DNA from: Candidatus Saccharimonadota bacterium
GTDB taxonomy: Bacteria; Patescibacteriota; Gracilibacteria; BD1-5; UBA6164
NCBI GenBank assembly: GCA_004563595.2
Contig: CP042461.1
Coordinates: 1,200,001-1,232,000, forward strand
Direction: 5' to 3'
DNA length: 32,000 bases
The translations under genes and the position numbers were made by a program. Positions within the stretch are counted from its first letter, which is position 1. Every line of letters starts with the position of its first letter. Shown piece after piece: positions 5,657 through 25,562 of this stretch. The notes beneath the pieces were generated by a model, which saw only the letters and a list, made by a program, of their open reading frames with translations, did not search any database and was not told the DNA's origin.

Positions 5657-7561
5657 ATGAGTGAATCTTTCTTCGAAAATACAACTGAACATGGATATAA
5701 TGGTCCTGATATGTTTGATGAAATGAAAAAACCAAAAACAAAAGAAGCTATTGAAGATAGAGTTTTTTGTTTGGCTAGTAAAATTCCTGATATCATAGAT
5801 CAAAATATGAATCTTATGCCTCTAAAACCCAAGATAAGAAATGAAAAAATTGTTGAAAGTATATATAATTCAAAATTTGAAGGCACGTACCAAGGTACCC
5901 CTGAACAATTAGCCAGAGTTTTTTCATACCTTTTTATAAGAACAAGGGATACTCAAGAAATTCAAGGGAATTATGTACAAATCAAGTTAAACAATGAAAA
6001 TAGTACTATAAATGTTAGAAGTGAATGAGATTTAAATACAAAATTTTCCTCTATTAAGCATTGAGTAACCGTAAAAGACTTATGAGAAACAAAAATTTTT
6101 AAAGACCGTAATTATAAAAAAGTAGAGTTTTACTCAGTAGATCAAGGTGTAAAAATATGATTTATTGCTGAAAATTTAACAGAACCAGTAAAAACAAAAA
6201 GCCTCAAACAATTAGACGGATATATACGTTCGATATGACTCAACCCAACTATAGAATTAAAAAGAGCTGCATTTAATAGAGTATACCCATTCAAGGATTA
6301 TAGATGAGATTTAGATCCTTCAGATGCATTCAGTCCAGCCCATGAAAAAGAGATACGTGCCAGAATTTCAAGAGATAATAATGAAGTGTACCATAAACTT
6401 GCTCAAGAATATGAGCTCAGAAGACTTATTGATACCAATAAAATAAGACTCTATTGTCATGAATCAATAGAAGGATTCAAAAAAGAAATAACTGATACAA
6501 AAGAATCTAATGCAAGAATGGAAGAAGCAACACCTACAGAACTTAAAGAATTAAAAGAATCAGTTCAAGCTCCTTCAAAAATAACGAATCCAGACCTTCC
6601 TAAAAAGAAAACTCCTGAAAATACGATTCAAAGAAAACAAAAAGCAGCAACTATAGAAACAAAAAATAACCTTGTAGAATCTGTATTGAGCAAAATTGAA
6701 AACAACGAAAATATCCAAGATTACCTTCAAAATAAACATCCAGACCTTCCTCAAGAAAAACGTTTGGCAAAATTTAAAAGGAGTATATGAGCAGCAAAAG
6801 ATAATTTTGCAGATAACATAATGACTTTTACTTATCTCCTACAACATTCATATAAAAATTGAGAAAATATTCAGTTATGGGAATATTATCAAGAAAAAAC
6901 TTGAAAAAACTGGTCAGATCTTTGAAAATCAGGAGAAAATGCTCTTTTTAGAAAATATGCATGAGAAGTACAAGAAATCTATTCATGAAAGAAAATGTCA
7001 AACAACCTTACTATCATGCGTGGGCTTATTATTGAGCATGAACTTGGGACAAAATTTGAAAATGTTATAGAGGAAGAAAAAGAGAAATCTCTCTTTAATT
7101 TTAAAGAACATTGACTCGATCATTCTCAAATTCAATGAAGAAAAGCTGAGTTTGATGGAGATTGAAAGACTTATTGCTCAAAAACTGTACGTTTATATTT
7201 AAATAAATATTTAAATAAATATGGAATCGTAGCAGCTTGGCCAGCATCTGCACAAGCTTTCATAAATAAAGCTGAGAAAAACTGATCCCAAGCACTTAAT
7301 AGAGCAACTCTTGCACAGGAATTAAAATCCCGTTTTACAAAAAATTGAGAAACTATATTTGACGTATTTCCGAAAACATCTAATGGACATAGATGTATTT
7401 GTTTTATATGAAAAGATGCAAACGTATATGTACTTGATGATTATAATTATTCAAGAAAACCAGTACTCCTCACTCAATATTTAAACAATCCTAAATACCA
7501 AAATCTTACTTTCATATTAAACAAAGGATATAAAGTATCTCCAAATACTATGCAATCCTAA
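5657..7561 (+). CDS. Hypothetical protein (634 aa), no signal peptide; possible C-terminal papain-like Cys/His hydrolase fold
   Basis: ORF-track pieces 5657-6028 and 6386-6790 share one frame. I translated the whole frame by hand to TAA at 7559-7561 and it is interrupted only by TGA. It has a K/E-rich central region. The C-terminus reads GDGKTYCSKTVRLYLNKYLNKYGIVAAWPASAQ ... TSNGHRCICFIGKDANVYVLDDY, a Cys...His...Asp spacing reminiscent of NlpC/P60 or CHAP-type enzymes. Confidence 0.6.
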
Positions 7562-10333: not shown

Positions 10334-10341
10334 AAAAATAA

Positions 10342-10370
10342 AAAACGCTGATTCTTTTCAGCGTTTTTTC
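10342..10370. terminator. Intrinsic terminator after secA; possibly shared with the convergent small gene
   Basis: Stem aaaacgctga (10342-10351) / tcagcgtttt (10358-10367), loop ttcttt, then a T-run. Confidence 0.75.
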
Positions 10371-10434
10371 ATGTCAATTTTAAAGACAAATAGACTTCAA
10401 AATTGAGTATTCATAATCACTAATCTAGACTAGA

Positions 10435-10854
10435 CTAATCCTCTCTTTTTATAAAATTTATTTTATGTAAATTTAAAAGCATTTCAATTAATGTTAGCAT
10501 TCCGTAATCGCAACTCAAAACACTATAGAATAGTATATTATCTCGTTTTGGAGATTCAGAATAATTTACTTCTATGATTTTTATGTTTCCTGATGATAAT
10601 ATTTTTTCAATGCTAAAAGAAAACCTACCAAATTGGTTTTCTTTAATATCGAGACCTCTTCGTTCTACACCAGAACATTCATTCACAACTTTAAATTTGC
10701 TCGTGCCTATACCATTTTCAATTCCATTAACTATTTTCTCCAATAAGCTTTTAACGTCTTTTACTCCACCCTTTTTTTCTTCTCCTACATTAGATTCTTC
10801 CAAAATATACTTCTCCTTTTTACTTCTGAGATGATGTTCATAACCAAAGCACAT
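10435..10854 (-). CDS. Small hypothetical protein (139 aa), possibly a PUR-alpha-like (DUF3276-type) ssDNA/RNA-binding protein
   Basis: An intact ORF with no internal TGA. The segment SGVERRGLDIKENQFGRFSFSIEKI resembles the PUR repeat signature (..fDvKEN.rGrFl.I.E). This is recalled by eye only. Confidence 0.4.
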   Translation of the reverse strand: MCFGYEHHLRSKKEKYILEESNVGEEKKGGVKDVKSLLEKIVNGIENGIGTSKFKVVNECSGVERRGLDIKENQFGRFSFSIEKILSSGNIKIIEVNYSESPKRDNILFYSVLSCDYGMLTLIEMLLNLHKINFIKRED

Positions 10855-11023
10855 TCAAAATATGGAAAAACATATAAATTGCAAATTACTTTAAAATAAT
10901 ATGTCAAAAAGTAGGTTTTTTTTTAACAATGCTGGGGTTTTCCTATTCGTCAATCTATTTTTCTGTAAAATTATACTCAACTATGTTATTATAATAAAGA
11001 TATTTTAAATAACTTATAAGACT

Positions 11024-13912
11024 ATGTTTGACCCTTCAAAGCTTGATTTAGATTTAGAGAATCTTGATAGTAATAATGAAAAAAAGAAAGCTGAAATGGT
11101 GCAAAAACCAGAAATAAAATGATCAAATGAAACTACTTTAAAAAATAGTGATATATTAAAGGTGGAACAATGAGAAAAGATAGGAACTAATGAAGTCAAA
11201 GAACTAAAAAAATCAAAAAATATAACTCCCCCTGAAAAGAAAATACCAAGTGATTTATCAGATGAACAAGTAGTTGCTAAGAAAGAATATTGACCTGATG
11301 AGGCAGCTTATGAAAAAAAAGATGATAAAAGTTCAAAACCTGTAAATCAAGATATTTCCCCTAAACTTATTTTTGATGTAAATATATCATCTGTTACAGA
11401 TATCCTTACTATACTCGTTGAAAAAGAGTATGATTTTGTAGTGATTGAACCAACAGACGACCATGTAAAGATTAGCTATAGAAAAGATAAAATTGAAAAG
11501 GAAGTAAAGCTCATAAAATACCCTATTTATTCACAAATTTTAATAAAATCAAAGACTCTTACAAAGCTTAAAGTTGACGAATCATCAATAACTCAAGAAT
11601 GAAGTTGAGAAATAAGATTAAAAAACAAAAACTACAAACTTCTCAGTAAAACATCCCCTTCTAATCTATGAGAAAAACTATTCTTAAAAGTTGTAGAGGA
11701 TACGAACAAGCTCATAAAAAAAGTAACAAAAAAAACATCTCTTAACCAGATTTTATGATTCTTTACTGCAGGGATTTTCTCTCTCCTTCTTATTGGATGA
11801 GCATTTCTTGCTTTTATACTCTTCAACTCGAACAATGTAGCTGATCTTACATTCTTTAATAACCTGTGAGTTGATGTATGAAGTATAAAGGACTTTACAG
11901 CAAAACTTGTTGATGGAATATTTTTCTCAATTATCTTTATAGAAACTATTTTTCTTTTCATTTTTACTTTCAAAGCCCTCCTTACAAAAAAAGATTTTAA
12001 ACAAAAAAAGATTGCAAGAACAGTTTTATCGATATTTTTTCTTTTCCTTGTTCTTATTTCAAGTTTCATTTGGCTTACTCTGAGTACAAAAATAACGAGT
12101 CTAACAGGTTTAAACTACTGAAAAATAGAAACCTATGACAATTCAAAATTTTTAAGTAATATTTTTGATGAAAATTGATCAAAAATAAATTTAAATTCTA
12201 GGATTATAGGGCCTGTAACTATAAGATTTGATATAGAACCCTTTATCGACAAACTTATCGCTGATTGATTTACCCCTCAAAGTATTACATGGGTATTTGA
12301 AGATGAAGAAATTGAAAAACCAATTGAAGATTTCAAGCTCATGAAAGAATTTAATAAAAAAGGTCTATTTAATGTAAAACTACTTATCACTGGTTTAAAT
12401 TTAAAACAAGAAATCGAAACTTTAGAAAAAGAAATTGCAAAGGTAAATATAGCTAACATAGTGGAAATAAAGGAAAAAAAGATCGACAATGGAGGAAGTA
12501 TTTTTGATTTTGATGCAAGCGATCTTAAAAATTTATGAAAAATAAAATGGTACTATATTCCAGATCTCAATGGAAAAAGTGATAGTGAGCAAACTGAGCT
12601 TGTTAATAATGCATTAGCAAAAGAAGTATTAACTGGAGATCTATTCACCAGCAAAATTATTTTTGATCAGGAGGTTATTTTATGAATGAGAATAATTGAT
12701 ACAAATGATGAGTCAGATGGACTTGATAAAATATTTATTATATCAAAGGATGAATCTGATAATATCAATGGAGAAATTAGTTATACAAGGTGAATAGAAA
12801 ATGATTTAGAATATGAAATCAAAGTCAAAAATCCAGAAACAGCTTTTTGAAATTGATTTATAGAGGAGTTCAAATGGAAAATCTGAGATAAAGATATTAC
12901 AAAAGAGGTTGATTTAACAGATCTTGAAGGGTCCTCAACTATCAAATATGAATTTAAAGAATATGGAAAGCATAAGATTATCGTTTCCTTAACAGATTCT
13001 AGATGACAAGTAAAAGAACTCTCTACCATTATAGATATCCCTAAAAAGTTAAAATTAAGACAAGAACTCCTAATCAATAATGCTGGTGAAAAAATTGAAA
13101 ATCTAAACTATGAAAAACAATTAAACGAATATTATATAAATGAAATCTGAATACCAACTCAACTTGGACTTGATGCAAGGCTCATCAAAGCAGATAATCT
13201 CCTCTATACTCTAAAGAAAGTAGAGTGGGACTATAATTCAGATTGAGACATAGATGCGACATGAAAACTTGTACAATATGATATTAATTCAGAATGAAAC
13301 CATACCTTCACTGTTCATTACACATTTGTACATAGAAAGGTAGCAGATGATATAATAAAAATTACAGAAAAAATATATATAGAATCTGTCACGAAAGATG
13401 CCCAATTAAACCTGAACATCAAAAAAACAGGAAACTATGTCCCTATTATCGTTCAATTTGATGCTTCAACAAGTCAGGTAAAAAATGAAAATATTGTAAA
13501 ATTTATTTGGGATTATTGAGATTGAGTTGTTGAAGAAAGAGACTCTATCGTAAAATGACACAAATATACAACTCCTGGGGATTACGAAGTAAAACTTACT
13601 GTTGTAACAGAAAGTGGGGAAAAACATTCTATCTCTAAAAAACTTATCCTTATACCAAAACCTCAAGTAGTGCAAATATCATCAAGTATGAAAAAAGCAC
13701 CTATATGACAAGGTATAGACTTCTTATCTGATAAATCAGAAGGACAAATCACTTGATACTTCTGGGATTTCTGAGATGGATCAACTTCAATTGAGGCAAA
13801 TCCTACTCATTATTATACAAAAGCAGGTTCATATAAGATTAAACTCAAGTTAGACTTTGCCAATAATAACGTATTAGAAGATACTACTACAATAGATATA
13901 TTTGAAGAATAA
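11024..13912 (+). CDS. Membrane protein (962 aa): cytoplasmic PilB/GspE N2-like domain without ATPase core, 3 TM helices, extracellular PKD repeats
   Basis: The whole frame was hand-translated and contains only TGA interruptions.
- N-terminal region: ILTILVEKEYDFVVIEPTDDHVKISYRKDKIEKEV...KSKTLTKLKVDESSITQEGSGEIRLKNKNYKLLSKTSPSNLGEKLFLKV. This parallels the IHxEP...vRxRiDG...RiK...l...E.R.PQdG...RvSt.P...GEk.vlR segment that precedes the Walker A of T2SS/T4P ATPases. No Walker A follows it.
- TM helices: ILGFFTAGIFSLLLIGGAFLAFILF, LVDGIFFSIIFIETIFLFIFTF and VLSIFFLFLVLISSFIWLTL.
- PKD signatures: WDYGDGVVEERDSIVKGHKYTTPGDYEVKLTV and [28 protein letters not shown], plus about 3 degenerate copies. 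Confidence 0.75.
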
Positions 13913-13942: not shown

Positions 13943-13971
13943 TCTCATCAATTCATGATGAGAATTTTTTT
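13943..13971 (+). terminator. Intrinsic terminator of the PKD-protein gene
   Basis: Stem tctcatca (13943-13950) / tgatgaga (13956-13963), 5-nt loop, followed by ATTTTTTT. Confidence 0.65.
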
Positions 13972-14031: not shown

Positions 14032-16765
14032 GTAATTAAGACTTCAGACTTTTCAAGAAGATTAAATAAGTTTTTTCAATATTACTTTTTAATATCTTCA
14101 TCTTGATCTTGTAGTTAATTCCCTTCTCCTTGTTATTCTTTGTTAAGATATAAGAGTCTATATTCTTCAATAACTTTGTCTTGAAAAATAGTACCTTTAT
14201 ACTTTTCTCCTTCTTGTATTTAATAATAAGAGTATCTAATCTTGCTCAAAGTTTGTTCACTATATCATTCTCTGATAAGTATACTCACACACTACTTGCT
14301 GTTCCAGTTTCTGCTGTTACAGTTGTATTGGCTTCTCTTTTCAATGCTTTTGCAAACAGTTTGAACGTTGCGAGTATCTTCACTTTGTGTTCTCTTGTAC
14401 TTTGTTTCGCTTGTCTGGCTAATATATAATTCTCTACGTCTTTGATAAAAGTATTTCTGTATTCTATTACTTTCTCATCATTATCTTTCTGCTTTTGTTC
14501 GATTACTTTGTCGACTCTCTTCTCTATCAATTGAAGGATTGTCATTTCTGAATGGTATTTCTTCAATGTTCATCATCATGTACTGTCTGTACTACTTCAT
14601 GTTCATGTTCATCCACTATTCAACTCTACTACATCTTCTTCTCAACAGAGACTTCATAGTTTCCCATATTTACATGATACTTCGTCTTGGACATACCATT
14701 TGTAAGTCGTTGTTGATCATGGGATCAGTTTACATGTGAGTTGTTCGTCTTTACAGGTTGGAATATAACTTCATCAACCTCAACCTCCTCATCAGCCTCC
14801 TCAACCTCAGCTTGAACTTGAACTTCATCAGCTACTTGTACTTGCTGTGGCTACTGAAAAGTTAATCGTATAATCACTTACATTTTCATTTGAATCAGTG
14901 TCCATACATCTTACATAGTAAGCATAACTTGTTCAGTCTGTAAGTCATGTTATGTTTGCTGTATGTGTGATTCCTCATGTTGCTGTTGTAAATATGTCTG
15001 TCATTGACGCATATGTTGTATTTACTACTGTTGAGTATTTACATGTTCATATTTCATCTGTATTTAATGTCAGATTCACAGCTGTCGTTCCTGATACTTG
15101 TTCTCAATTTGGTAATCCATTTGAGAGTATTGGAGCGGTTACATCAACGAGAGTGGCTACTGAAAAGTTCAGTGTGTAATCTGTTGTTGTTTCATTACTT
15201 GATCCATCTATACATCTTACATAGTATGTGTGTGATGTTCCATTGGTAAGTCATGTTATATTTGCTGTATGTGTAATTCCTCAGGTTCCTGTTGTAAATA
15301 TGTCTGTCATTGATGCATATGTTGTATTTACTACCGTTGAGTATTTACAAGTAGAGTTTTCATTGGTATCTAATGTCAGATTCACAGCTGTTGTTCCTGA
15401 AGCTTGTTCTCCGTTTGGAAGTCCATTACTAAGGATTGGTGCTGTTGCATCAACTACGTTTGCTACTGAAAAATTCAGTACGTAATCTGATGTGTTTTCA
15501 TTACTTGATCCATCTATACATCTTACATAATACGTATATGATGCTCAGTCTGTAAGTCATGTTACATTTGTTGTATGACTTGTATTTCATGTCGTTGTAA
15601 AGGTATCTGTCATTGATGTATATGTTGTATTTACTACTGTTGAGTATTTACATGTTGATGCTTCATTGGTATCTAATGTTAGATTCACATTTGTTGTTCC
15701 TGAGGCTTGTTCTCCGTTTGGAAGTCCATTACTAAGGATCGGTGCTGTTGCATCAACTACGTTCGCTACTGAAAAGTTCAGTGTGTAATCTGTGGTTGTT
15801 TCATTATTTGATCCATCTATACATCTTACATAATACGTATATGATGTTCCATCTGTCAGTCATGTTACATTTGTAGAATGACTTGTATTTCATGTCGTTG
15901 TAAAGGTATCTGTCATTGATGCATACGTTGTATTTACTACTGTTGAGTATTTACATGTTGATGCTTCATTCGTATCTAGTGTCAGATTCACATTTGTTGT
16001 TCCTGAGGCTTGTTCTCAGTTTGGAAGTCCATTACTTAAAAATGGTGCTCATGTGTCTGGAGTATTTGCTACTGAGAAGTTTAATGTATAATCTGTTGTG
16101 GTTGCATTAGAGTTTCCATCCATACATCTTACATAATACGTATGTGATGTTCCATCTGTAAGTCATGTTATGTTGGTTGTATGGTTTGTATTTCATGTCG
16201 TTGTAAATGTGTTTCACATTGCTCAATATGATGTGTTTGCATTTGGAGAGTATCTACAAGTTGCATTCTCATCGGTATCTAATGTCAGATTTACATTTGT
16301 TGTTCCTGAGGCTTGCTCTCCACTTGGAGTTCCGTTCGATAGAATCGGTGCTGTTGTGTCTGGAGTATTTGCTACTGAGAAATTCAGTGTGTAGTCTGTT
16401 GTATTTACATTTGATACTGAGTCGATACATCTTACGTAGTACGTATATGATATTCCATCTATCAGTCATGTTATGTTGGTACTATGTGTTGTATTTCAGG
16501 TTGTTGTAAATGTATTCCCTATTCATGCGTATGTAGTATTTGAATTTATTCAATATTTACAGGTTGCATTTTCGTCTGTGTCTAATGTGAGATTCACATT
16601 TGTTGTTCCTGAGGCTTGTTCTCCACTTGGTGTTCCATTCGAAAGTACTGGAGCTGTTGTGTCTGGAGTTACGGCTACAGAAAAGTTTAATGTGTAATCT
16701 GCTGTTGTTGCATTACTTGATCCATCTATACATCTTACATAATACGTATGTGATGTTGCATCTGT
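13996..16765 (-). repeat. Segmental duplication, copy 1 (terminator + tail + linker + first ~6.3 Ig repeats of gene A)
   Basis: It is colinear with 27532-30310. The offset is 13536 bp, becoming 13545 after a 9-bp indel near 14815/28350. In the 60-nt blocks I compared I saw 0-2 mismatches per block. Identity collapses after about 16765/30310. Confidence 0.9.
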
Positions 16766-19700
16766 AAGTCCTCATATACTCACACTATGTGTTTGTGATC
16801 ATGTTGTAGCAAAGTTGTTTATCATTGATCCATAAGCTACACTTGCAGTTGTAGAATATTTACAAAATGCATCCTCATCTGTAGATATACTGAGTGTTAT
16901 ATTTGTTGTTCCTGCAGCTTGTTCTCCACTTGGGGTTCCGTTCGAAAGAATTGGAGCTGCAGTATCCGGTGTATTTGCTACAGAGAAATTGAGTGTGTAA
17001 TCTGCTGTGTTTTCATTACTTGATCCATCCATACATCTTACATAGTAAGTATATGATGTTGCATCTGTCAGTCATGTTATGTTGGTTGTATGACTTGTAT
17101 TTCATGTTGTTGCAAAGGTATTTATCATACTTGAATATGCTGTATTTGCACTTGTTGCATATCTACAGGTTGCATTTTCAACAGTGTCTAATGTCAGATT
17201 CACATTCGTTGTTCCTGAAGCTTGTTCTCCACTTGGTGTTCCATTCGAAAGTACTGGAGCTGTTGTGTCTGGAGTGTTCGCTACAGAAAAATTTAATGTG
17301 TAATCTGTTGTTGTTTCATTACTTGATCAGTCGATACATCTTACATAGTACGTATATGAATTCCCATCTGTTAATCATGTTACATTTGTAGAATGTGATG
17401 TTATTCATGTAGTAGTAAATGTATTTGTCATACTTGTGAATACTGTATTTGCAACTGTAGAGTATTTACAAGTTGCATTCTCATCTGTATCGAGTGAGAG
17501 ATTTATATTTGTTGTTCCTCAGGCTTGTTCTCCACTTGGAGTTCCGTTTGATAATACTGGAACCGTTATGTCTGTCGAAGTAGTTGATCCTGTTGAAAAT
17601 TTATAAGCAGCAATAACAGGTGGATTCGTACCAGTTGCTTGATTATAATCAGCTTTATAAATAGATACAAATAACGTACCTGATACAGGGTCGAATGTTC
17701 CTCCACTGATTTGATTCACTTTACTTATTTGGAAAGGAGCATCGAAAATACCAACATCATAAGGAGTCACATCATATGCATTCATTATACCATTTTTGAC
17801 ATCTACAAGATCATTCACATCATACATCCAATAATAAGGGTATGTATCATACTCATCTATTATATAGTGACCTTGAATACCAGTATGAGGAGAGACTCCA
17901 TATGACATACCACTTTCATGACCTCCTGACATTCACAGTACTAAATATGTACTTGTTCATGGAACTATCATACCAAATGATCCTTCTGATGCATGAGTCC
18001 ATAAATCATTTGTACCACTACTATTGTATAAGTCTTCTAGAGGTACTAGGCCGTTTGGTAAAGTATACTTTAACAACTCAGTTGTCGGAATATCACTAAT
18101 AGAAGCTGAATTATCAAGTACATCGGTAGCATTAAATGCAAATGCAGCAGGACCAACACTCGTACTGTATATCAATGCCCTTGCTGTACTATTAGTAAAA
18201 CCTCCTATATGTGTTCCACCAAGAGCACTTTGCCATTCAACAGGAGTAGGTGAGATCCATCCAGCCGCATACGATTGTCCCTCCATAGTGAAATAACCAT
18301 CAACTTCTGATGTAGCAAGGTTATTTGAATCACGAAGAATAAGTGTATTTGTTGAACTGTATGGACTTTGATCATAAAAATCATAATGATTTACGAGTAA
18401 GTGCCCATTTTCGGCATAGATACCATTTATACGACTTTGTCCATTAACTTTATGAACTGCTTTATCAAGTACATTCGTAAAGTTTTGAAGAGGTGCCTCA
18501 GCAGTATTTAGTGCTGTTATATCAGTACTATTTACAAGTTCAGGAATTGAAAATTCAGCAATAGACTTACCATATTCGTGTCCAGCAACAAATAATGAAT
18601 TATTATCAGCATTGAATCATATAGCTCCATATGAAAAACTAGCATTCGCATAGTCACCAACTCAAAAATTACCTGACGGTAAACGAAAAGCTCCCTGATA
18701 ACTAATGTTATCTAAAGTAAGGAGTGGGAACGTAGATCATGAAGATGAAGTTATCGAATCTGTAACGTTGAAATTTATAACAAAATCTAGATTATTTTCA
18801 TTACTTGATCCATCGATACATCTTACATAATATGTATATGATACTCCATTTGTAAGTCCTCATATACTCACACTATGTGATTGTGATCATGTTGTTGCAA
18901 ATGTATTTATCATTGATCCATACGCTGTGTCTGCAGTTGTTGAATATTTACAAAATGCATTCTCATCGGTAGAAACGCTCAGTGTTGTATTTGTTGTTCC
19001 TGATGCTTGTTCTCCTGTAGGAGTTCCATTTGAAAGTATTGGAGCTGTAGTATCAACGACAACAATAGTTCCATCAACATATTCATATGCTCAGATATCA
19101 TATGTCCCTTGTCTCATGATCCCATTTAAATCTCTTGCAATTGGAGCAAAGCTTGGTAAAGCTTTATCAAAAACAAGTGAATTTTTTCATGAATCAACTG
19201 CGGGGCTTCATGATTCTATGTTTAAATTATCACTCGATGTATTTACAAATAATGGATCTAGATTATCTACATTATTTACATCAGCAATACAATCAGTACA
19301 ACTATCGTAGTTTCCTATACCGTAATATAAATTATTTGAGAGGTTCACTGTTGATGCTTCTCATATGCTCATATAATGATTCCCTGTAGGACCTGGGAAA
19401 TCCGATGTCATGTGTACTATATTATTATCAAACTTTGTATCAAATGTTGTTCCAGCAGATGTAGAAAATCAAATATATCCTGAATTATAAAATGTATTAT
19501 TATAAAAATATCCTGCTCAATTAATACTATTATGTTTCGATGTTGGTGCATATCAAGTATGATATGAATCAGCAGCATCATAGGTTCCACAATTCAAAAT
19601 TAAATTATTATACACATATGTTGGTTCTGGGATAACTTCCCCAGGGTCATAACTCAAATCGTATACATTTAATGCAGTTGCTCTTTGATAATCACAACTT

Positions 19701-22700
19701 ATTATGTTATTAAATATGAAATGTGACTTTACAACTTGTGTTGATAAACAACGATTTTGTTGATGATTCACTGTGATTTCTGGTCATCTCCCATAATCAT
19801 TATCATAAATATAATTCCATCATAGAGAATTCCCTTCAGTGTCAGCACATCAAGCTATATAAATACCATGATCAAAACGATTTGCACTTCTTGCCCCATG
19901 AATAGCATTCCCAAGAACAATATTCCCATTTCATAAATGAGTAGAATTATTTCAGACATTAATATGCCCAGCTCATTGACCAAAATACTCTTTGAGTCAT
20001 TGAACATCATTTCATATAAATCTATGGTAATCTCCTGCTAATCTTACAGAAGCATATGGTGTATCAAAAGCAAATCATGACATAACCATATAATTGTTTT
20101 CAAAAAATACTCCATTTTGAAAACTATTTGAATATGTTGGGTAAGTAAAATTTGCTAACTCTCATGGGTAACTAATAAGTGCTATAGGATTTCCTTGTGT
20201 CCCACTTATTTCACTCGTTCTAATCCATAAAATAGAATTTCATCCATTTGTTTTTTCTGAATATGTTCCTCCTCTAAAATAAAGAATATCTCCAGGTTGA
20301 ATATTTTCTAAATATCAACTTCATCCACTTGCTTGCTTATAACTAAATGGTGATGTAAATGATCCATCTCAAAAAGTATCTGTAGAGTTTACAAAATATA
20401 TATCCCCATCTCTAATAGTAAATGGGAGAGTATTTGATTCTTGTCCACCTATGTGAAGCTTGATATCAAGGTCTCATACTCACATTGAACTATTTAAGTA
20501 AAATGTAATTCTTTGTTGCTGTGGTGTTGGCCAAGCATCTCACCACTGTTCATAGTCTGAATCTGAAGTGAGGTCTACTCAACCTACACTTATATAGCTT
20601 GATCCTCTTGATGATCAAAAATTCTTTCACCATACGGTTACAGCTACTCATTTATCTGATTCAGATGTACTCCAACCACTCTTTGGTCAGCTTTCAAGAT
20701 CTGAATATAACAATACTGGAGCCGTTACGTCTGATGAACCAGTACTTGTTGGTTCTCCAATAACGTAGTCTGCTGGTAATCTCCCATCTTTTGGTGATTC
20801 ATCCCATAATGGATGTGATGAATCTATTGGAGTATATACTACAACATCATCGATTGCATACCATTGTTCTGCTTGATTACTAGGGTCTGAAAACCAATTA
20901 TATGTATTTCATCCTATTCAAAATGTATTAAATTTATCACTCAGCGAACTTCACGCACTTCTCCATGGAATATCACTCAAAGAGAATTCTTCTACTCCAT
21001 CAAGCCAGTATTGAGCAGTTCCATCTGCTACTCATAACGCAGAATTCATTCATACTTTTATTTCTAAATGATGCCATCCTCCATCATCAAAGGGGTCAGT
21101 AAATGTCGTTGAGGCATTTGTACCCCCCCATGGAGAATCGTAAGTATCCGGATATGCACCACAATAATATTCACTTTCTTGTGGATCACATCTTAAAGCA
21201 GCTACTGATCTATATCCATAGGTTGGAGAGCTCTTAATATCAAGTAAAAATATTGGAGCACTATCACCATTACTAAAGAAATTCCATGGACTATTTACTC
21301 CATCAGGTCCATCAAAATTATAAATTCTAGCCAGTTTAAAAAATGCATCTGCCCATTGCCAGTCTGGATCAACTTTAACCCAGAAACTCATATTAATTTC
21401 ATCATAACTTCCACTAAGACTCTTTATCAGCATAGTGTCATCACCCCAAGCTTGTTCTCATACAGCTTTACTTGACTCTTGGTATTTTATCCAAGATTTT
21501 CCACTCGCTCATCTAAATTGTTCGTTAGTAATTGATTGTCCTGGTTTCTTAGTTGGAAATCCATTATCTGGGTGCCAGTATTCAGTATTTCTTAGGTAAT
21601 TCCATCCTTCAGGAATAGTACTATCACATGCTGCAATACCATCACACTCTTCACTCCCATCAGCAACATACCAATCTGGATGATCATCAAAATTATCTTC
21701 AAAAAGGATATTTCCTCCACTCGATATAGGAGTACTTGCTACTGAAAAACTAATAGTATAGTCTGATGTATTTTCATTACTACTTCCATCTTCACACCTT
21801 ACATAGTAGGTATACGAATTTCCATCCGTTAATCATGTGATATTTACTGAATGTGATGTACTATTTGTTATTGTAAATACATTACTCATTCATGCATATG
21901 TTGTATTTACTGTTGATGAATACTTACACGTCGCTGTTTCATCTGTTGAAACACTCAAAGTTGTGTTTGTAGTTCCCAACGAAAGTTCTCCTGTTGGAGT
22001 TCCATTTGATAATATAGGTGCTGTAGTATCAGTTGATCCACTGTTAGAAGTACCAATAACATAACTTTCTGGCAATCTCCCATCTTTTGGTGATGCATCC
22101 CATAATGGATGTGATGAATCTATTGGTGTATATGTTACTACATCATCTACGGCATACCATTCTTCATCTTGATTGGAAATATCTGAATACCAGTTATTCC
22201 AATTTCCACCAATAGATATAAAGTTCCAACCTGTTCCTTCAGGAGATCCTACTTGTCTAAATGGCATATCTGTTACTGAATGTTCCAACAGACCATCTAA
22301 CCAAAATTGGAAAATTCCATCTTCTACTCCAGGAGTAGAGTTCATTTTCACTCTTAGCTCTATATGATGCCACTCACCATCTCCAAAGTTTTCTTCAAAA
22401 GTTGGGTGTGTAACTCCATCTACTGAAGTTGTAAACCCTGTACATGGTTCTCCATCTAAACATGTGAAATAATCTGTTGTTGTCCATTTATTATAATAAC
22501 TTGGACCACCACAACTAAGATAACCTGATTCTTGAGGATCACACCTCGGAGCATGACTCGATGTCCAACCATAAGTTGATGAGTTATTCAAATCAAAGAT
22601 ATAAAGAGGACCATTCACTCCAGCTGAACCGAGTTTAAAAGGATCAACTGATCCTGACGGACCATCAAAATGTCAGAGTCTAAATAATTTCAATTGTTTT

Positions 22701-25528
22701 GTTCCTGCTTGCCATTGCCATCCTGGTTGCATAAGAACCCACGCACTAAAGTACACCTCATCATACTCTTGATCTAAGCTTTTCATCAAAATAGAATCCG
22801 AATAGTAATTTGCCTCGTCTGATGTATGATTCGATTCACTTGTTTTAATCCACGACTTTCCTTCCGTCCCTCTTTTTACATCACCTGAAATTCTTTGACC
22901 TGCCTTCTTTGTTGAATAACCATTATCAGGGTGCCAATTATCATCGGAATTACGATAAAATGTCCAATCTTGAGGTACATCATCATCACATATACCTGTT
23001 ACTCCTGCACCTGTACAGACAGTTGAAGTAGGAGAAGGATACCAATCTGGGTGATCATCAAAATTATCTTCAAAAAGAATATTTCCTCCACTCGATATAG
23101 GAGTACTTGCTACTGAAAAACTAATAGTATAGTCTGATGTATTTTCATTACTACTTTCATCTTCACATCTTACATAGTAGGTATATGAATTCCCATTTGT
23201 TAACCCTGCTATATTTACTGAATGTGACGTACTACTTATTACAATAAAAGTGTCACTCATTCATGCATAGGTTGCATTCGCTGTTGGTGAATATTTACAC
23301 GTCGCTGTTTCATCTGTTGAAACACTCAAAGTTGTATTTGTAGTTCCTGATGAAAGTTCTCCTGTTGGACCCCCATTTGATAATACGGGTGCGGTAGTAT
23401 CTGATGGTAATGCCCCTGACCCAATAACATAATTTATTGGTAATCTCCCATCTTTTGGTGATTCATCCCATAACGGATGTGATGAATCAATTGGTGTATA
23501 TGCCACAAAATCATCTATTGCATACGAAAGTTCTTTGTTATTTGAAGGGTCTGAAAAGAAATTGTTCCAGTTTCAGCCAATAGATACAAAATTAAATCCT
23601 AGATCTGCCGGTGATCATGCATATCTCCATTGAGCATCACTACGAGAATATTGTTCTACTCCATCAATCCACATACTAAATTCTCCATCAGCAATACCTG
23701 GAGTTGAATTATTCTTTACATAAAGTTCTAGTTTATGCCATGAACCATCTCACATTGTTTCTTTAAATGTTGGGTTCCCCGCAGGAGTATAATCTATTTC
23801 ACCGGTACATGTCATTCCCTCTGGACATACAAATACTGGATCATATCATATTTCATTATCGCAATAATAATTATCTTCTTGATTATCACACCTCGGTTCA
23901 TGATGACCTCTCCATCCCCATTGAGTAGAATTTTTTAATTGAAGCAAGTACATAGGTCCTGTATTTCCAGCACCTCAAAGTTGAAATACATTCACTCCAG
24001 TACCACTATCAACATGTCCCATACGTGTTAGTTTCAATTCTCCATTTCAAGGGCTTACCCATTCCCATTCTGCAGGAAATTTAATCCAAAAACTTGTATG
24101 GATTTCATCATAATCTTCTTCCAAAACTTTCATCAAGATTGCATCTGAATAATAGTTTGATTCACCAATTGAGTGGTCTGATTCACTTGATTTAATCCAT
24201 GCTTTTCAACTTGCTCATCTAAACTCATCACTTGAAATCCTTTGCCCATAGTTATGACTTGGATATCAAGTTGATGGATTCCATTGATCTGTATGACGAT
24301 ACCATGTCCAACCTAATGGAATATCATCATCAGGACATTTTTCAGCCCAGAATCATCCACACTCTGATCATGTTGGTGTCCATTCATTATGACCATCAAA
24401 ATCATCTTCAAAAAGAATATTTCCTCCGGTAGGTTCTACTAAATTTGCTACCGAAAAATTAATAAGGTAGTCTGATATATTTTCATTTGAATCTCCATCT
24501 ATACATCTGACATAGTATCTATATAAATTTCCATCTGTAAGTCATCACACACTTACAGTATGTGATTGAGCTCATGTAGTCGAAAAACTATTTGTCATTA
24601 ATCCATATGCTATGTTTGCAGTTGTTGAATATTTACAAAATGCATTTTCATCTGTTGAAACACTCAAAATTACATTTGTTGTTCCTGATGATTGCTCACC
24701 ACTTGGAGCTCCATTTGAAAGAATTGGAGCTATTGCAGGTGGAGTATATCATGAAGTAGCTATATCATCGTTATAATCAGTAAGTATCTCTGCCGCACTC
24801 AATGCTTCATTATATATTTTTAATTCATCAATAGCTCCATCAAAAGTACGTGATCCATCTGGATTCGCTCATATACTAACTGGCACTGCAGAACTTTGTG
24901 CCACTGGTCAATTTGCTCATGTAGATGATCCAGCTTCAACACCATTTACATAGATTCTCATCGTTGTTTGATCATATGTAGCTGTTATTTGTTGCCATAC
25001 TCAAGCTTGAAGTTCTACATTATTTCATACTAGCGTTACTGTCTCTTGATCAGATTTTAAACGAAAACGAGGATAATATTTTCCACCTTCATCCATAGTA
25101 CTTATCATCCAGTAATGATCAGCTCCAGAGGAGCTTGTTGTTTTTGAAATGATTCTTGCATCTGGAATACCAAAAGTATCTGGTTTTATCCATGCTGAAA
25201 TAGTAAGTCCATTTCATGTTATATCCATATTTCAAAGTGAAATATTTGTATTATTAAAATCAATAGCTGAGTTTATAAGACCTGGAGACCAAGCCCCATT
25301 TGTAATAGTTCATTGGCTCCCATAAACATCTCAAAGTACTGTTCAGGTATTTTCATCAAATGAATAATAATGTATTTGGCTTGCAGGGGCTGCATATATT
25401 AATTGGAAATTATATATATATAACAATAAAGTCATTGTTAGTAACACCAAAAATGATGATATTTTTTTTCTGTAAACAGATATTTGCATAATAAATAATC
25501 CTTTAAAAAATATTAGGTATATTAACAT
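14036..25528 (-). CDS. Giant secreted modular surface protein A (3830 aa): putative adhesin / polysaccharide-binding or -degrading protein
   Basis: All minus-strand ORF-track fragments share one frame (14285-14566, 16799-17032, 17519-17932, 17957-18286, 19553-19771, 21050-21433, 21890-22618, 22673-23260, 23261-23506, 25343-25528). I scanned every codon between them and found no TAA/TAG, only TGA.
- Start: the N-terminus is MLIYLIFFKGLFIMQISVYRKKISSFLVLLTMTLLLYIYNFQLIYAAPASQ. It looks like a signal peptide, and the true start may be the second ATG at 25489.
- Stop: TAA at 14036-14038. Confidence 0.85.
14851..17584 (-). repeat. Tandem array of 9 coding repeats (303-306 bp each, ~101-aa Ig-like units) in gene A
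   Basis: The FSVA-encoding marker (ctactga/ctacaga on the plus strand) recurs at 14851, 15157, 15463, 15766, 16069, 16372, 16675, 16978 and 17281. The unit consensus is DTTAPxLSNGxPSGEQxxGTTNxxLxxxTDExAxC(K/R)YSxxxxxxYxxMxxxFxxTGxxxHxxxxTGLTDGxxYxYYVRCxDxxGNxNxxDYxxxFSVA. Four more dispersed copies lie at about 18765-19060, 21745-22030, 23105-23400 and 24450-24745. Confidence 0.9.
17585..18740 (-). other. Domain of gene A: ~385-aa domain of unknown function, shared with giant gene B
   Basis: LTLDNISYQGAFRLPSGNFGVGDYANASFSYGAIGFNADNNSLFVAGHEYGKSIAEFSIP ... LGMSGGHESGMSYG ... YYWMYDVNDLVDVKNG ... IAAYKF. The C-terminal ~190 aa align to gene B residues encoded at 31432-32000 (GMSGMHESGGGYK...YIWLWDVNDFLDVKNG...ILAYKI). 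Confidence 0.5.
19078..20404 (-). other. Domain of gene A: right-handed parallel beta-helix (pectate-lyase fold)
   Basis: The entry motif is IYFVNSTDTFGDGSFTSPFSYKQA...IQPGDILYFRGGTYSE. It is followed by repeated N-rich rungs (NIVLGNAIHG, NNTFYNSGY, FDNNIVH, NLSNNLYYG). The characteristic ending is LDPLFVNTSSDNLNIESGSPAVDSG...ARDLNGIMRQGTYDIGAYEY. Confidence 0.7.
20405..20700 (-). other. Domain of gene A: IPT/TIG-like Ig domain
   Basis: GVAVTVWGKNFGSSRGSSYISVGGVDLTSDSDYEQWGD...ITFYLNSSMGVGDLDIKLHIGGQESNTLPFTIRDG follows the typical G..vti.G.NFG...g.v.vGG pattern. Confidence 0.55.
20822..21721 (-). other. Domain of gene A: beta-jelly-roll module 3
   Basis: Starts GGNILFEDNFDDHPDWYVADGSEECDG. 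Continues ...GGWHHLEIKVGMNSALGVADGTAQYWLDGVEE...FGIGGNTYNWFSD...WYAIDDVVVYTPID. Confidence 0.55.
22118..23092 (-). other. Domain of gene A: beta-jelly-roll module 2
   Basis: Starts GGNILFEDNFDDHPDWYPSP. Continues ...GEWHHIELRVKMNSTPGVEDGIFQFWLDGLLE...FISIGGNWNNWYSD...WYAVDDVVTYTPID. Confidence 0.55.
23485..24427 (-). other. Domain of gene A: beta-jelly-roll module 1 (ConA-like lectin/glucanase/polysaccharide-lyase-like)
   Basis: Starts GGNILFEDDFDGHNEW. Continues ...DGSWHKLELYVKNNSTPGIADGEFSMWIDGVEQ...FVSIGGNWNNFFSD...YAIDDFVAYTPID. It is homologous to modules 2 and 3. Confidence 0.55.
24785..25370 (-). other. Domain of gene A: LamG / concanavalin-A-like (Laminin_G_3-type)
   Basis: ISAWIKPDTFG...RIISK...VELQAGVWQQITATYDQTTMRIYVNGVEAG...VSIGANPDGSRTFDGAIDELKIYNEALSAAEIL is the classic Laminin_G_3 ending. 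Confidence 0.75.
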
Positions 25529-25532
25529 ATAA

Positions 25533-25562
25533 ATTTTATCATATTTTATAGTTTAGAGTCAA
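25533..25562 (-). promoter_or_regulatory. Candidate sigma70-type promoter for giant gene A
   Basis: The minus strand reads TTGACT (25562-25557), an 18-nt spacer, then TAAAAT (25538-25533). The -10 element ends 4 nt before ATG 25528, so either the mRNA is nearly leaderless or the real start is ATG 25489. Confidence 0.3.

What the first reader, a model, noticed from the sequence alone, without database searches (positions are those of the whole stretch)
11024..13912. PilB/GspE N2-like domain severed from its ATPase and fused to a TM anchor and PKD ectodomain
Residues ~125-225 match, motif by motif, the segment that immediately precedes the Walker A in T2SS/T4P assembly ATPases (D-x-V-IEP ... 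V-K-I-x-YR ... K-x-K-x-L-x-x-L-x-V-D-E ... Q-E-G ... S-x-T-S-P-x-x-x-GEK-x-F-L-K). The protein then goes straight into three TM helices and about five PKD-like repeats, with no P-loop.

With the N-terminus inside and the C-terminus outside, the topology would put the ATPase-like domain in the cytoplasm. There it could dock onto a pilus motor hexamer or mimic one of its subunits, while the PKD array is displayed outside. That would be a possible transmembrane coupler between pilus activity and the surface.

Its terminator sits back to back with the terminator of giant gene A.
Basis: partly seen in the sequence, partly recalled or inferred. Interest (0 to 1): 0.65.

Follow-up and report, generated by a model that had tools for sequence, protein, structure and literature searches.

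The report
Pilus-ATPase N2 domain on membrane stalk
A candidate-phylum (Gracilibacteria) bacterium encodes a conserved membrane protein that carries, on its cytoplasmic side, a stand-alone copy of one domain of the type IV pilus assembly motor without the motor's ATPase, and, on the outside, a stalk of six immunoglobulin-like domains; the architecture is real and undescribed, but what it does is still a guess.

Summary
The window uses genetic code 25 (TGA=Gly). Read that way, 11024-13912(+) is one 962-aa ORF.

Residues 124-229 match the N2 region of T2SS/T4P extension ATPases:
- Pfam T2SSE positions 12-117 of 370, E 1e-5 to 4e-7.
- NCBIfam GspE, E 6e-8.
- An AlphaFold model of a 48%-identical homolog: its top 26 Foldseek PDB hits are all PilB/PilF/GspE/BfpD.

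There is no Walker A or ATPase core. Three TM helices follow, with positive-inside charges giving N-in/C-out. The ectodomain has about six beta-sandwich domains, of which only the last two are significant PKD domains.

The family is confined to code-25 Gracilibacteria: about 26 full-length 50%-identity clusters and 14 distinct loci. It sits directly downstream of secA in 13 of those 14. No pilus ATPase lies within 10 kb. A sister clade of 750-790 aa shares the TM and ectodomain but lacks N2, so N2 was gained or lost once.

Two of the three N2 arginines that sense nucleotide in PilB are lost.

That the domain docks onto the pilus machine (PilC platform or PilB/PilT) is plausible but untested. 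I rate it a new domain architecture built from known parts, of moderate interest.

The parts
11024..13912 (+). Whole gene, 962 aa under genetic code 25 (30 in-frame TGA=Gly, TAA stop)
   Evidence: orthologs of 922-983 aa in other Gracilibacteria
11024..11056 (+). Conserved N-terminal peptide MFDPSKLDLDL (short linear motif, cytoplasmic)
   Evidence: Invariant M1 F2 D3 P4 K6 L7 L11. Present at the start of every ortholog. Related acidic-hydrophobic motifs (sLLDEIL) occur in the N2-less clade
11057..11368 (+). About 100-aa K/E/D-rich variable linker, predicted disordered
   Evidence: Composition. pLDDT below 50 for the equivalent residues 13-104 of P0002. Poorly aligned among homologs
11369..11710 (+). 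N2-like domain of T2SS/T4P extension ATPases (residues ~116-229; helix-3 strands-helix-3 strands), no ATPase core
   Evidence: Pfam T2SSE 124-229 to profile 12-117/370; NCBIfam GspE/PilB/ComGA; PDB sequence hits; AF2 pLDDT >90 and Foldseek E 1e-7 to PilB/PilF/GspE/BfpD; residue mapping
11753..11824 (+). TM helix 1 (residues 244-267), preceded by a K-rich tether of about 12-15 residues (+5/-2)
11909..11977 (+). TM helix 2 (residues 296-318)
11978..12019 (+). Conserved basic cytoplasmic loop LTKKDFKQKKIAR (+6/-1), shared with the N2-less clade
   Evidence: T311 K312 K313 nearly invariant in A4
12020..12088 (+). TM helix 3 (residues 333-355)
12125..13393 (+). Four beta-sandwich (Ig-like) ectodomains D1-D4 (residues ~368-479, 481-576, 582-675, 683-790). 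No significant Pfam match; D3 is weakly PKD-like
   Evidence: AF2 of P0005, mean pLDDT 90.5; boundaries mapped; Pfam per domain; Foldseek multi-Ig matches
13415..13657 (+). PKD domain 1 (D5, residues 798-878; WDYGDG motif)
   Evidence: PKD_4 E 7.6e-14
13694..13903 (+). PKD domain 2 (D6, residues 891-960; WDFGDG motif)
   Evidence: PKD_4 E 2.4e-14
13943..13971 (+). Terminator-like hairpin plus T-run, 31 nt after the stop codon
13996..14029 (.). 14-bp palindromic hairpin flanked by an A-run and a T-run; likely serves the convergent giant gene (stop at 14036)

Best explanation
Shown:
- The gene encodes a conserved Gracilibacteria cytoplasmic-membrane protein.
- In order, it has an N-terminal peptide motif, a disordered linker of about 100 aa, a stand-alone homolog of the N2 domain of pilus/T2SS extension ATPases, and a tether of about 12-15 residues.
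- Three TM helices follow, then an external stalk of about six beta-sandwich domains ending in two PKD domains.
- The N2 copy sits in one clade of an older '3TM + Ig/PKD stalk' family, and its sister clade lacks it.
- It has lost two of the three arginines with which PilB's N2 senses nucleotide, so it is a non-catalytic binding module.

Inferred:
- Because the domain is specifically of the extension-ATPase type and is held just under the membrane, where the N2 ring of PilB/GspE faces the platform protein, it most likely acts as an adaptor or decoy for the type IV pilus machine.
- It would bind either the cytoplasmic domains of the PilC-type platform protein, using the alpha2 face that PulE N2D uses in the PulE:PulF model, or the C-terminal domain of a PilB/PilT subunit, as in the N2D(n):CTD(n+1) packing unit.
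- Either way, the external stalk would be positioned at the pilus base, or motor access would be linked to what the stalk contacts.
For: Architecture and homology.

Conservation as a single ORF in at least 14 distinct code-25 loci, and about 26 full-length clusters at 50% identity.

A single N2 gain or loss event: the NJ tree on the shared region splits cleanly into an N2+ clade and an N2- clade.

Extension-ATPase specificity: PilB/PilF/GspE/BfpD fill the top 26 Foldseek ranks, while PilT, DotB and VirB11 come only at E above 3e-3. The NCBIfam hits are GspE, PilB, ComGA and TfpB.

Arginine mapping: PilB-Gm R257/R271/R286 align with target S194/L207/K222. Across 33 family members these positions are variable, hydrophobic, and Lys in 30 of 33. 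The roles of these arginines are from PMC5424180.

Two of the four invariant N2 residues (Y169, K177) lie in helix alpha2. That helix is the PulF-binding face of PulE N2D in the AF2-multimer model of PMC10790770.

Gracilibacteria genomes do encode PilB, PilC, two PilT, GspE and PilD (PMC6851277). The window itself carries a 602-aa type IV pilin-like gene.
Against: - There is no direct evidence of any interaction.
- No T2SSE ATPase Walker A motif lies within +/-10 kb in the window or in any of the 19 fetched loci.
- The only conserved same-strand neighbour is secA.
- Loss of the arginine fingers removes part of the canonical N2:CTD/nucleotide interface.
- In an assembled hexamer every CTD already carries a neighbour's N2D, so docking would have to be competitive or occur before assembly.
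- The N2-less sister clade shows that the TM and stalk function without N2.
- The invariant alpha2 residues could be purely structural.
Confidence: 0.4

Rival explanations
1. This is a surface stalk or adhesin whose cytoplasmic N2-like domain has been co-opted for something unrelated to pili. Examples would be self-association or clustering of the protein, or binding another cytoplasmic partner together with the conserved N-terminal peptide motif. The resemblance to PilB would then be purely historical.
For: - The N2-less sister clade keeps the TM helices, the basic loop, the stalk and an N-terminal peptide motif, so the core function does not need N2.
- Nucleotide-sensing arginines are lost.
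- There is no pilus motor gene nearby.
- The ectodomain resembles generic multi-Ig adhesin, S-layer or receptor stalks.
- CPR predators are known to carry many large PKD/Ig surface proteins for host attachment (PMC8080830).
Against: The domain has stayed recognisably of the extension-ATPase type in sequence (EP, Q-E-G, P-x3-G-E-K) and fold across a deep clade. That suggests selection on ATPase-like surfaces. No alternative partner is indicated by any data.
Confidence: 0.35
2. This is a Sec-linked membrane protein. The gene forms a functional pair with secA, and the cytoplasmic module interacts with SecA or the translocon, for example to drive export of its own 600-aa ectodomain or of the neighbouring giant surface proteins.
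For: secA lies directly upstream on the same strand in 13 of 14 distinct N2+ loci, even where the downstream genes differ: a giant gene here, HSP90 in L017-19, RNase HII/QueH in L001 and L020. Spacers are usually about 90-140 bp.
Against: - The whole RNR-RmuC-RuvA-SecA block is syntenic in this lineage, so the adjacency may be inherited order rather than function.
- In the window the spacer is 690 bp, with a terminator-like hairpin right after secA.
- L002 and L010 have insertions at the junction, and L004 has secA elsewhere.
- N2-less relatives are not next to secA.
- No N2-SecA relationship is known.
Confidence: 0.1
3. This is a split ATPase: the protein supplies an N2 domain in trans to a pilus or secretion ATPase that lacks its own.
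For: In PilB/GspE hexamers the N2D of one chain and the CTD of the next form a rigid packing unit (PMC5424180), so complementation in trans is sterically conceivable.
Against: - The equivalents of arginine fingers R257 and R271 are lost, which should cripple catalysis-coupled closure.
- No N2-less ATPase was seen in any held locus.
- The published Gracilibacteria genome reports ordinary PilB/PilT/GspE (PMC6851277).
Confidence: 0.05
4. This is an artefact: a chance similarity, a mis-assembled chimera or a pseudogene.
For: The full-protein Pfam score (24.7 bits) is just under the gathering score of 24.9. The copies in L001/L005 and L002 are frameshifted.
Against: Pfam, NCBIfam, PDB sequence search and fold search all converge on the same region of the same family. 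Intact ORFs of 886-983 aa occur in many independent assemblies.
Confidence: 0.02

Closest known systems
N2 domain (N2D) of type II secretion / type IV pilus extension ATPases (GspE/EpsE, PilB, PilF, BfpD; Pfam T2SSE PF00437, N-terminal ~120 positions)
   Same: - Same fold: helix-3 strands-helix-3 strands, rmsd 1.4-2.5 A over about 100 residues.
- Same core motifs: EP, Q-[DE]-G and P-x3-G-E-K.
- Cytoplasmic and membrane-proximal location.
   Different: - There is no C-terminal RecA-like ATPase domain (Walker A/B, Asp box, His box, Zn-tetracysteine) and no N1/MshEN domain.
- Two of the three N2 arginines that sense nucleotide or the Asp box are replaced.
- It is covalently tethered to three TM helices instead of to a CTD.
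N2-less '3TM + Ig/PKD stalk' proteins of CPR bacteria (e.g. HRI36523.1 = P0083, annotated only as 'PKD domain-containing protein')
   Same: - 28-31% identity from TM1 to the C-terminus.
- Same three TM helices, the same basic TKKE[FY]K.KK loop, the same YDN.KL.S / LIGPIT.RFD juxtamembrane motifs and the same two terminal PKD domains.
- An acidic-hydrophobic peptide motif near the N-terminus.
   Different: - Their cytoplasmic tail is only 40-75 residues, with no N2 domain.
- They include standard-code organisms.
- They are not adjacent to secA. Two of the four loci are next to a Mur-ligase-family gene.
Bitopic/polytopic inner-membrane pilus assembly partners that tether the motor (GspL, PilM-PilN, BfpC)
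   Same: They are membrane proteins with a cytoplasmic module that contacts the ATPase, and they have an extracytoplasmic part. This is the closest functional analogy for the proposed adaptor role (established knowledge; PMC10790770 for PulL-PulE N1D).
   Different: - Those proteins use actin-like (GspL/PilM) folds that bind the ATPase N1D, or a PilN INLLP peptide.
- They have one TM helix and small ferredoxin-like periplasmic domains.
- No Pfam match to any of them was found here at E<=1.
Multi-Ig/PKD surface stalks and adhesins (e.g. Aureispira grappling-hook protein GhpA fragments, RTX adhesin repeats, S-layer PKD proteins)
   Same: The ectodomain is a string of tandem beta-sandwich domains, with Foldseek E 1e-13 to 1e-7.
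   Different: These are generic fold matches (TM-scores 0.15-0.2, rmsd above 17 A overall). None has an N-terminal cytoplasmic N2 domain or this 3-TM anchor.

Membership tests
T2SSE / PilB-GspE secretion ATPase family (PF00437) | N2 domain preceding the ATPase core | tested here: met
   Pfam profile positions 12-117 matched, E 1e-5 to 4e-7. Foldseek top 26 hits are extension ATPases. NCBIfam GspE 6e-8
T2SSE / PilB-GspE secretion ATPase family (PF00437) | RecA-like C-terminal domain with Walker A (GxxGSGKT), Walker B, Asp box and His box | tested here: not met
   No [AG]xxxxGK[ST] anywhere in the 962 aa. The Pfam match stops at profile position 117 of 370 and TM helices follow. NCBIfam scores of 20-32 bits compare with cut-offs of 300-850
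T2SSE / PilB-GspE secretion ATPase family (PF00437) | Conserved N2 arginines that contact nucleotide or the Asp box (PilB-Gm R257, R271, R286; PMC5424180) | tested here: not met
   They align with S194, L207 and K222 in the target. Across 33 family members these positions are variable, hydrophobic, and Lys in 30 of 33
T2SSE / PilB-GspE secretion ATPase family (PF00437) | N1 / MshEN (T2SSE_N, PF05157) domain in many members | tested here: not met
   No PF05157 hit at E<=1. Residues 12-115 are predicted disordered
PKD domain proteins (PF00801 / PF18911) | PKD beta-sandwich with the WDFGDG-type motif, above the Pfam gathering score | tested here: met
   Two domains, 798-878 and 891-960: PKD_4 at 52 and 53.6 bits against a cut-off of 27. 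The other four beta-sandwich domains do not reach significance
Unnamed CPR '3TM + Ig/PKD stalk' family (N2+ and N2- clades) | Three TM helices with the conserved basic loop 2, juxtamembrane YDNxK / IGPxTxRFD motifs, about six beta-sandwich domains and two terminal PKD domains | tested here: met
   Profile search: 211 hits at E<=1e-3. Alignments. 28-31% identity to N2- members over residues 236-950. Tree
PilN / PilO / GspL / PilM alignment-complex proteins | Single TM helix with a PilN/PilO/GspL Pfam domain; PilN N-terminal INLLP peptide | tested here: not met
   No such Pfam family at E<=1. There are three TM helices. The N-terminal motif is MFDPSKLDLDL, not INLLP
CPR Pam pilus system (NCBIfam NF058578 PamR) | Score above the 300-bit equivalog cut-off | tested here: not met
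   14.2 bits, E 0.015, confined to 20 residues of the last PKD domain. Pam pili are reported in Saccharimonadia and Microgenomatia (bioRxiv 10.64898/2026.03.03.709456)
   Supporting evidence:
- Positive-inside rule: the pre-TM1 tether is +5/-2, loop 2 is +6/-1 and loop 1 is +2/-3.
- The number of TM helices is odd.
- There is no N-terminal signal peptide.
This is a hand calculation, not a trained predictor or an experiment

The most novel reading that the evidence does not exclude
The N2-like domain is a membrane-tethered decoy or adaptor for the type IV pilus machine. By occupying the N2-binding face of the PilC platform, or a PilB/PilT C-terminal domain, it would gate or localise pilus extension according to what the external Ig/PKD stalk touches, such as a host or prey cell. 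That would be a new class of transmembrane regulator coupling surface contact to a pilus motor in code-25 CPR epibionts.
Probability: 0.2. Interest if true: 0.75.

Novelty: new variant of a known kind. Interest (0 to 1): 0.5.

Why it matters
N2 domains are known only as integral parts of PilB/GspE-type hexameric motors. There they form the packing unit with a neighbouring ATPase domain and, in current models, the face that turns the platform protein.

A conserved, ATPase-less, membrane-tethered N2 copy is a natural dissection of that domain. If it binds PilC or PilB/PilT, it would show which N2 surface is enough for docking. It would also point to a previously unrecognised way of regulating or positioning type IV pili in Gracilibacteria, organisms whose host attachment is thought to depend on pili and large surface proteins.

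There is a practical point too. Databases call these proteins only 'PKD domain-containing protein'. Fragments produced by the wrong genetic code are labelled 'GspE/PilB-like ATPase' or 'microbial collagenase'. That can inflate counts of pilus ATPases in CPR genomes.

Tried and rejected
- Table-11 ORF listing and translation gave only fragments. I re-translated with code 25 in Python.
- A profile of the whole N-terminal half (alignment A1) against PDB found no ATPase. The long low-complexity and TM columns probably swamped the signal. The N2-only profile (A3) recovered GspE/PilB, but no better than the single sequence.
I therefore used the database homologs for that search and for both structure predictions (P0002 and P0005). 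These were translated by their sources with TGA=Trp, so some Gly positions read as Trp.
- The representative search returned no ATPase among its top 150, so the origin of the N2 copy, meaning which ATPase lineage donated it, could not be traced.
- My first regex for calling N2 presence was unreliable. I replaced it with an HMM.
- Rfam found nothing in the window.
- The PamR hit led to a CPR pilus paper that is unrelated to this protein.
- Literature searches found no description of a stand-alone N2 domain or of this architecture.
Full report
**Genetic code and gene model**

With the standard bacterial code the interval has no ORF longer than about 145 aa. The + frame from 11024 is interrupted 30 times, always by TGA, and ends in TAA. 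Reading TGA as glycine (code 25) restores textbook PKD motifs (WDY*D*V becomes WDYGDGV; FWDF*DG becomes FWDFGDG). It also turns the whole 32-kb window into long ORFs:
- ribonucleotide reductase, RmuC and RuvA;
- an unknown 634-aa protein;
- SecA;
- the target;
- a 3838-aa giant protein on the opposite strand;
- a 602-aa type IV pilin-like protein;
- a second giant protein.

G+C is 27-37%. The window therefore comes from a code-25 CPR bacterium, Gracilibacteria in the broad sense. The gene is 11024-13912(+) and encodes 962 aa.

**The N2-like domain is real**

Sequence evidence:
- Pfam places residues 124-229 on positions 12-117 of the 370-position T2SSE model. E is 1.1e-5 in the full protein (24.7 bits against a gathering score of 24.9) and 3.8e-7 (29.5 bits) for the excised segment.
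- Four of five family members hit the same model.
- NCBIfam gives GspE 6e-8, PilB 6e-6, GspE-TIGR 6e-6, ComGA 7e-5 and TfpB 2e-4, all on the same residues.
- phmmer against PDB returns GspE/EpsE and PilB as its top eight hits, aligned without gaps over 88-107 residues of their N2 regions.

Structural evidence:
- The tools would not accept my code-25 translation, so I modelled the 48%-identical homolog P0002, whose N2 segment has no TGA artefacts, with a 32-sequence alignment.
- The N2 segment is predicted at pLDDT above 90 with a helix-3 strands-helix-3 strands topology.
- Foldseek against PDB gives 26 hits at E<=1e-3, and all are extension ATPases: PilB of two Geobacter species, Thermus PilB/PilF, Vibrio EpsE/GspE and EPEC BfpD. 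The best E is 1e-7, with rmsd 1.4-2.5 A over about 100 columns.
- PilT4, DotB and VirB11 follow only at E above 3e-3.

Nothing in the protein matches a Walker A motif or the rest of the T2SSE model.

**Rest of the anatomy**

- Residues 1-11 (MFDPSKLDLDL) are nearly invariant among orthologs.
- Residues 12-115 are K/E/D-rich, variable and predicted disordered.
- After N2 comes a K-rich tether of about 12-15 residues, then three hydrophobic helices (244-267, 298-316, 333-351).
- Flanking charges are +5/-2 before TM1, +2/-3 in loop 1 and +6/-1 in loop 2. There is no N-terminal signal peptide, so the orientation is N-in/C-out.
- The three helices are predicted with pLDDT 85-98.
- The ectodomain was modelled from homolog P0005 (50% identical over residues 366-962) with 49 sequences. 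Mean pLDDT is 90.5 and the fold is almost all beta, parsing into about six sandwich domains.
- Only the last two domains are significant PKD domains. D3 is marginal (E 0.07) and D1, D2 and D4 have no Pfam match.
- Foldseek finds only generic multi-Ig stalks: GhpA grappling-hook fragments, mastigoneme proteins, cytokine-receptor ectodomains, RTX adhesin repeats and S-layer proteins.
- Two terminator-like hairpins separate the gene from the convergent giant gene.

**Family and distribution**

- The word-indexed search found only five clusters, all translated by their sources with TGA=Trp.
- A full HMMER pass over 1.84 billion representatives found 211 proteins at E<=1e-3 and 58 at E<=1e-30. About 26 are full-length (847-1034 aa) with N2, and many others are fragments. 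No ATPase appears in the top 150.
- A scan of GTDB species representatives found 10 loci, all MAGs labelled Gracilibacteria, 'Peribacteria' or Patescibacteria.
- Under code 25 the locus ORFs run 922-982 aa with 19-47 in-frame TGA.
- Public names are only 'PKD domain-containing protein'. JGI labels one N-terminal fragment a GspE/PilB-like ATPase.

**A sister clade without N2**

About 17 representatives of 750-790 aa match only from TM1 onward, at 28-31% identity to the target over residues 236-950. They share:
- the three TM helices;
- the TKKE[FY]K.KK loop;
- the juxtamembrane YDN.KL.S and IGPIT.RFD motifs;
- the two terminal PKD domains.

Their cytoplasmic tail is 40-75 residues with a conserved sLLDEIL-type peptide and no N2.

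An NJ tree on the shared region separates the N2+ and N2- sequences into two clean clades. The only 'N2-' labels inside the N2+ clade are sequences that begin inside TM1, most likely N-terminally truncated gene calls. The N2- clade includes a standard-code organism (L013, 53% G+C, no in-frame TGA) as well as code-25 organisms. The simplest reading is that an N2 copy was inserted once, between the N-terminal peptide and TM1 of a pre-existing 3TM-stalk protein. A single loss cannot be excluded.

**Genomic context**

- In 13 of 14 distinct N2+ loci, secA lies directly upstream on the same strand. This holds even where the downstream neighbours differ.
- The whole RNR-RmuC-RuvA-SecA block is syntenic in this lineage.
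- In the window the spacer is 690 bp, with a hairpin right after secA.
- L002 and L010 carry insertions at the junction.
- N2- genes are not near secA.
- No T2SSE-type Walker A (G[PS]TGSGK[ST]) occurs in any frame of the window or of any of the 19 other loci.

Context therefore gives no positive support for a pilus link, and only weak, lineage-confounded support for a Sec link.

**What the N2 copy can and cannot do**

McCallum et al. (PMC5424180) show two things about PilB:
- The N2D of one chain and the CTD of the next form a rigid packing unit (they report about 1,600 A of buried surface).
- N2 arginines R257, R271 and R286 contact the Asp-box glutamate or the nucleotide phosphates of the adjacent unit.

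The tagged PilB chains in PDB are offset by 20 residues (QDGR = 277, YRVS = 291, VLRLL = 306). With that offset, the three arginines align with S194, L207 and K222 of the target. Across 33 family members these columns are variable, hydrophobic (I/L/T), and Lys in 30 of 33. The domain has therefore lost most of its nucleotide-sensing apparatus and is a non-catalytic module.

The four absolutely invariant N2 residues are P143, Y169, K177 and Q191, and Y169 and K177 lie in helix alpha2. In the AF2-multimer model of PulE6:PulF3, alpha2 and the alpha2-beta4 loop of N2D form the interface with each cytoplasmic domain of the platform protein (PMC10790770). With its short tether, the N2 copy sits exactly where the N2 ring of a docked motor would face PilC. 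Gracilibacteria do encode PilB, PilC, two PilT, GspE and PilD (PMC6851277).

**Interpretation**

I consider the architecture established (confidence about 0.9). The mechanism is inferred.

The most likely role (0.4) is a non-catalytic adaptor or decoy for the type IV pilus machine. It would bind the PilC platform or a PilB/PilT C-terminal domain, and so place the Ig/PKD stalk at the pilus base or link motor access to what the stalk contacts.

The rivals are:
- a surface stalk or adhesin whose N2 module has been co-opted for an unrelated interaction (0.35). This is nearly as likely, because the N2-less clade shows that the TM and stalk work without N2;
- a Sec-linked role (0.1);
- a split ATPase (0.05);
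- an artefact (0.02).

**Comparison with known systems and novelty**

The protein is not a member of the T2SSE ATPase family, because the defining ATPase core and arginine fingers were tested and are absent. It contains a homolog of one of that family's domains. It is also not a PilN, PilO or GspL-type protein and not part of the Pam pilus system.

I found no description of a stand-alone N2 domain or of this fusion. I rate it a new variant (a new domain architecture) built from known parts, confined to a poorly studied lineage. Interest is 0.5.

Noticed in passing
window 1-32000: The whole window is coded with TGA=Gly (code 25). Table-11 tools show only three ORFs over 150 aa, while code 25 gives RNR, RmuC, RuvA, SecA, the target, two giant proteins and a pilin-like protein.
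   Followed up: yes
window 14036-25552 (-) and 27572-32000 (-): There are two giant genes (3838 aa, and at least 1475 aa cut by the window end). They share a 91%-identical C-terminal stretch of about 1180 aa and contain internal repeats of about 100-110 aa at 55-65% identity, so this looks like a recent duplication.
   Followed up: partly
window 25708-27516 (+): A 602-aa type IV pilin-like protein lies between the two giant genes. It has an N_methyl motif (E 1.8e-7; KGFTLVELIVV) and a large, duplicated C-terminal globular part. Large pseudopilins were noted for a Gracilibacteria genome in PMC6851277.
   Followed up: partly
window 10334-11023: The secA-target spacer is 690 bp here, against about 90-140 bp in most relatives. 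It holds a minus-strand ORF of 139-151 aa with no Pfam match (10435-10890) and a hairpin directly after secA (10340-10369). L010 has a 1.4-kb spacer and L002 has a 487-aa gene at the same junction, so this may be an insertion-prone spot.
   Followed up: partly
window 5657-7561 (+): A 634-aa protein lies between ruvA and secA with no Pfam match at E<=0.01. Relatives carry different unknown genes at this position, such as a 431-aa minus-strand gene in L017 and L018.
   Followed up: no
window 11024-11056; N-termini of P0083, P0089, P0132, P0137, P0151-P0153: Both clades of the family keep a short acidic-hydrophobic peptide near the N-terminus: MFDPSKLDLDL in most N2+ proteins and s[LF]LDEI[LI] in N2- proteins. 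This suggests a conserved cytoplasmic partner independent of N2. The partner is unknown.
   Followed up: partly
L001/L005 6804-9681; L002 2028-4849: The orthologs in these two assemblies are split by a frameshift into two overlapping ORFs. This could be sequencing error in A/T-rich DNA or genuine pseudogenes; it was not resolved.
   Followed up: no
L013 2845-6486; L015 370-4016; L016 1-5321 and 8894-9748: N2-less relatives sit next to a Mur-ligase-family gene in two loci. In L016 the relative is preceded, after a 9-bp gap, by a PKD-like protein of at least 1003 aa, with a prepilin-peptidase-like gene (A24_N_bact) 3.5 kb away.
   Followed up: no
P0004, P0155, P0156 (database fragments of the family): Fragments produced by wrong-code gene calling are annotated 'type II secretory ATPase GspE/PulE/PilB-like' (N-terminal piece) or 'microbial collagenase' (PKD pieces). 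This is a source of false pilus-ATPase counts in CPR bins.
   Followed up: partly
L001 16646-18141; L020 19536-21037: About 7-10 kb downstream of the target's orthologs there is a conserved PrgI / TraC-like / T4SS_pilin cluster, the monoderm-type T4SS genes described for Patescibacteria. A small N_methyl pilin gene lies about 5-6 kb downstream in most loci.
   Followed up: no
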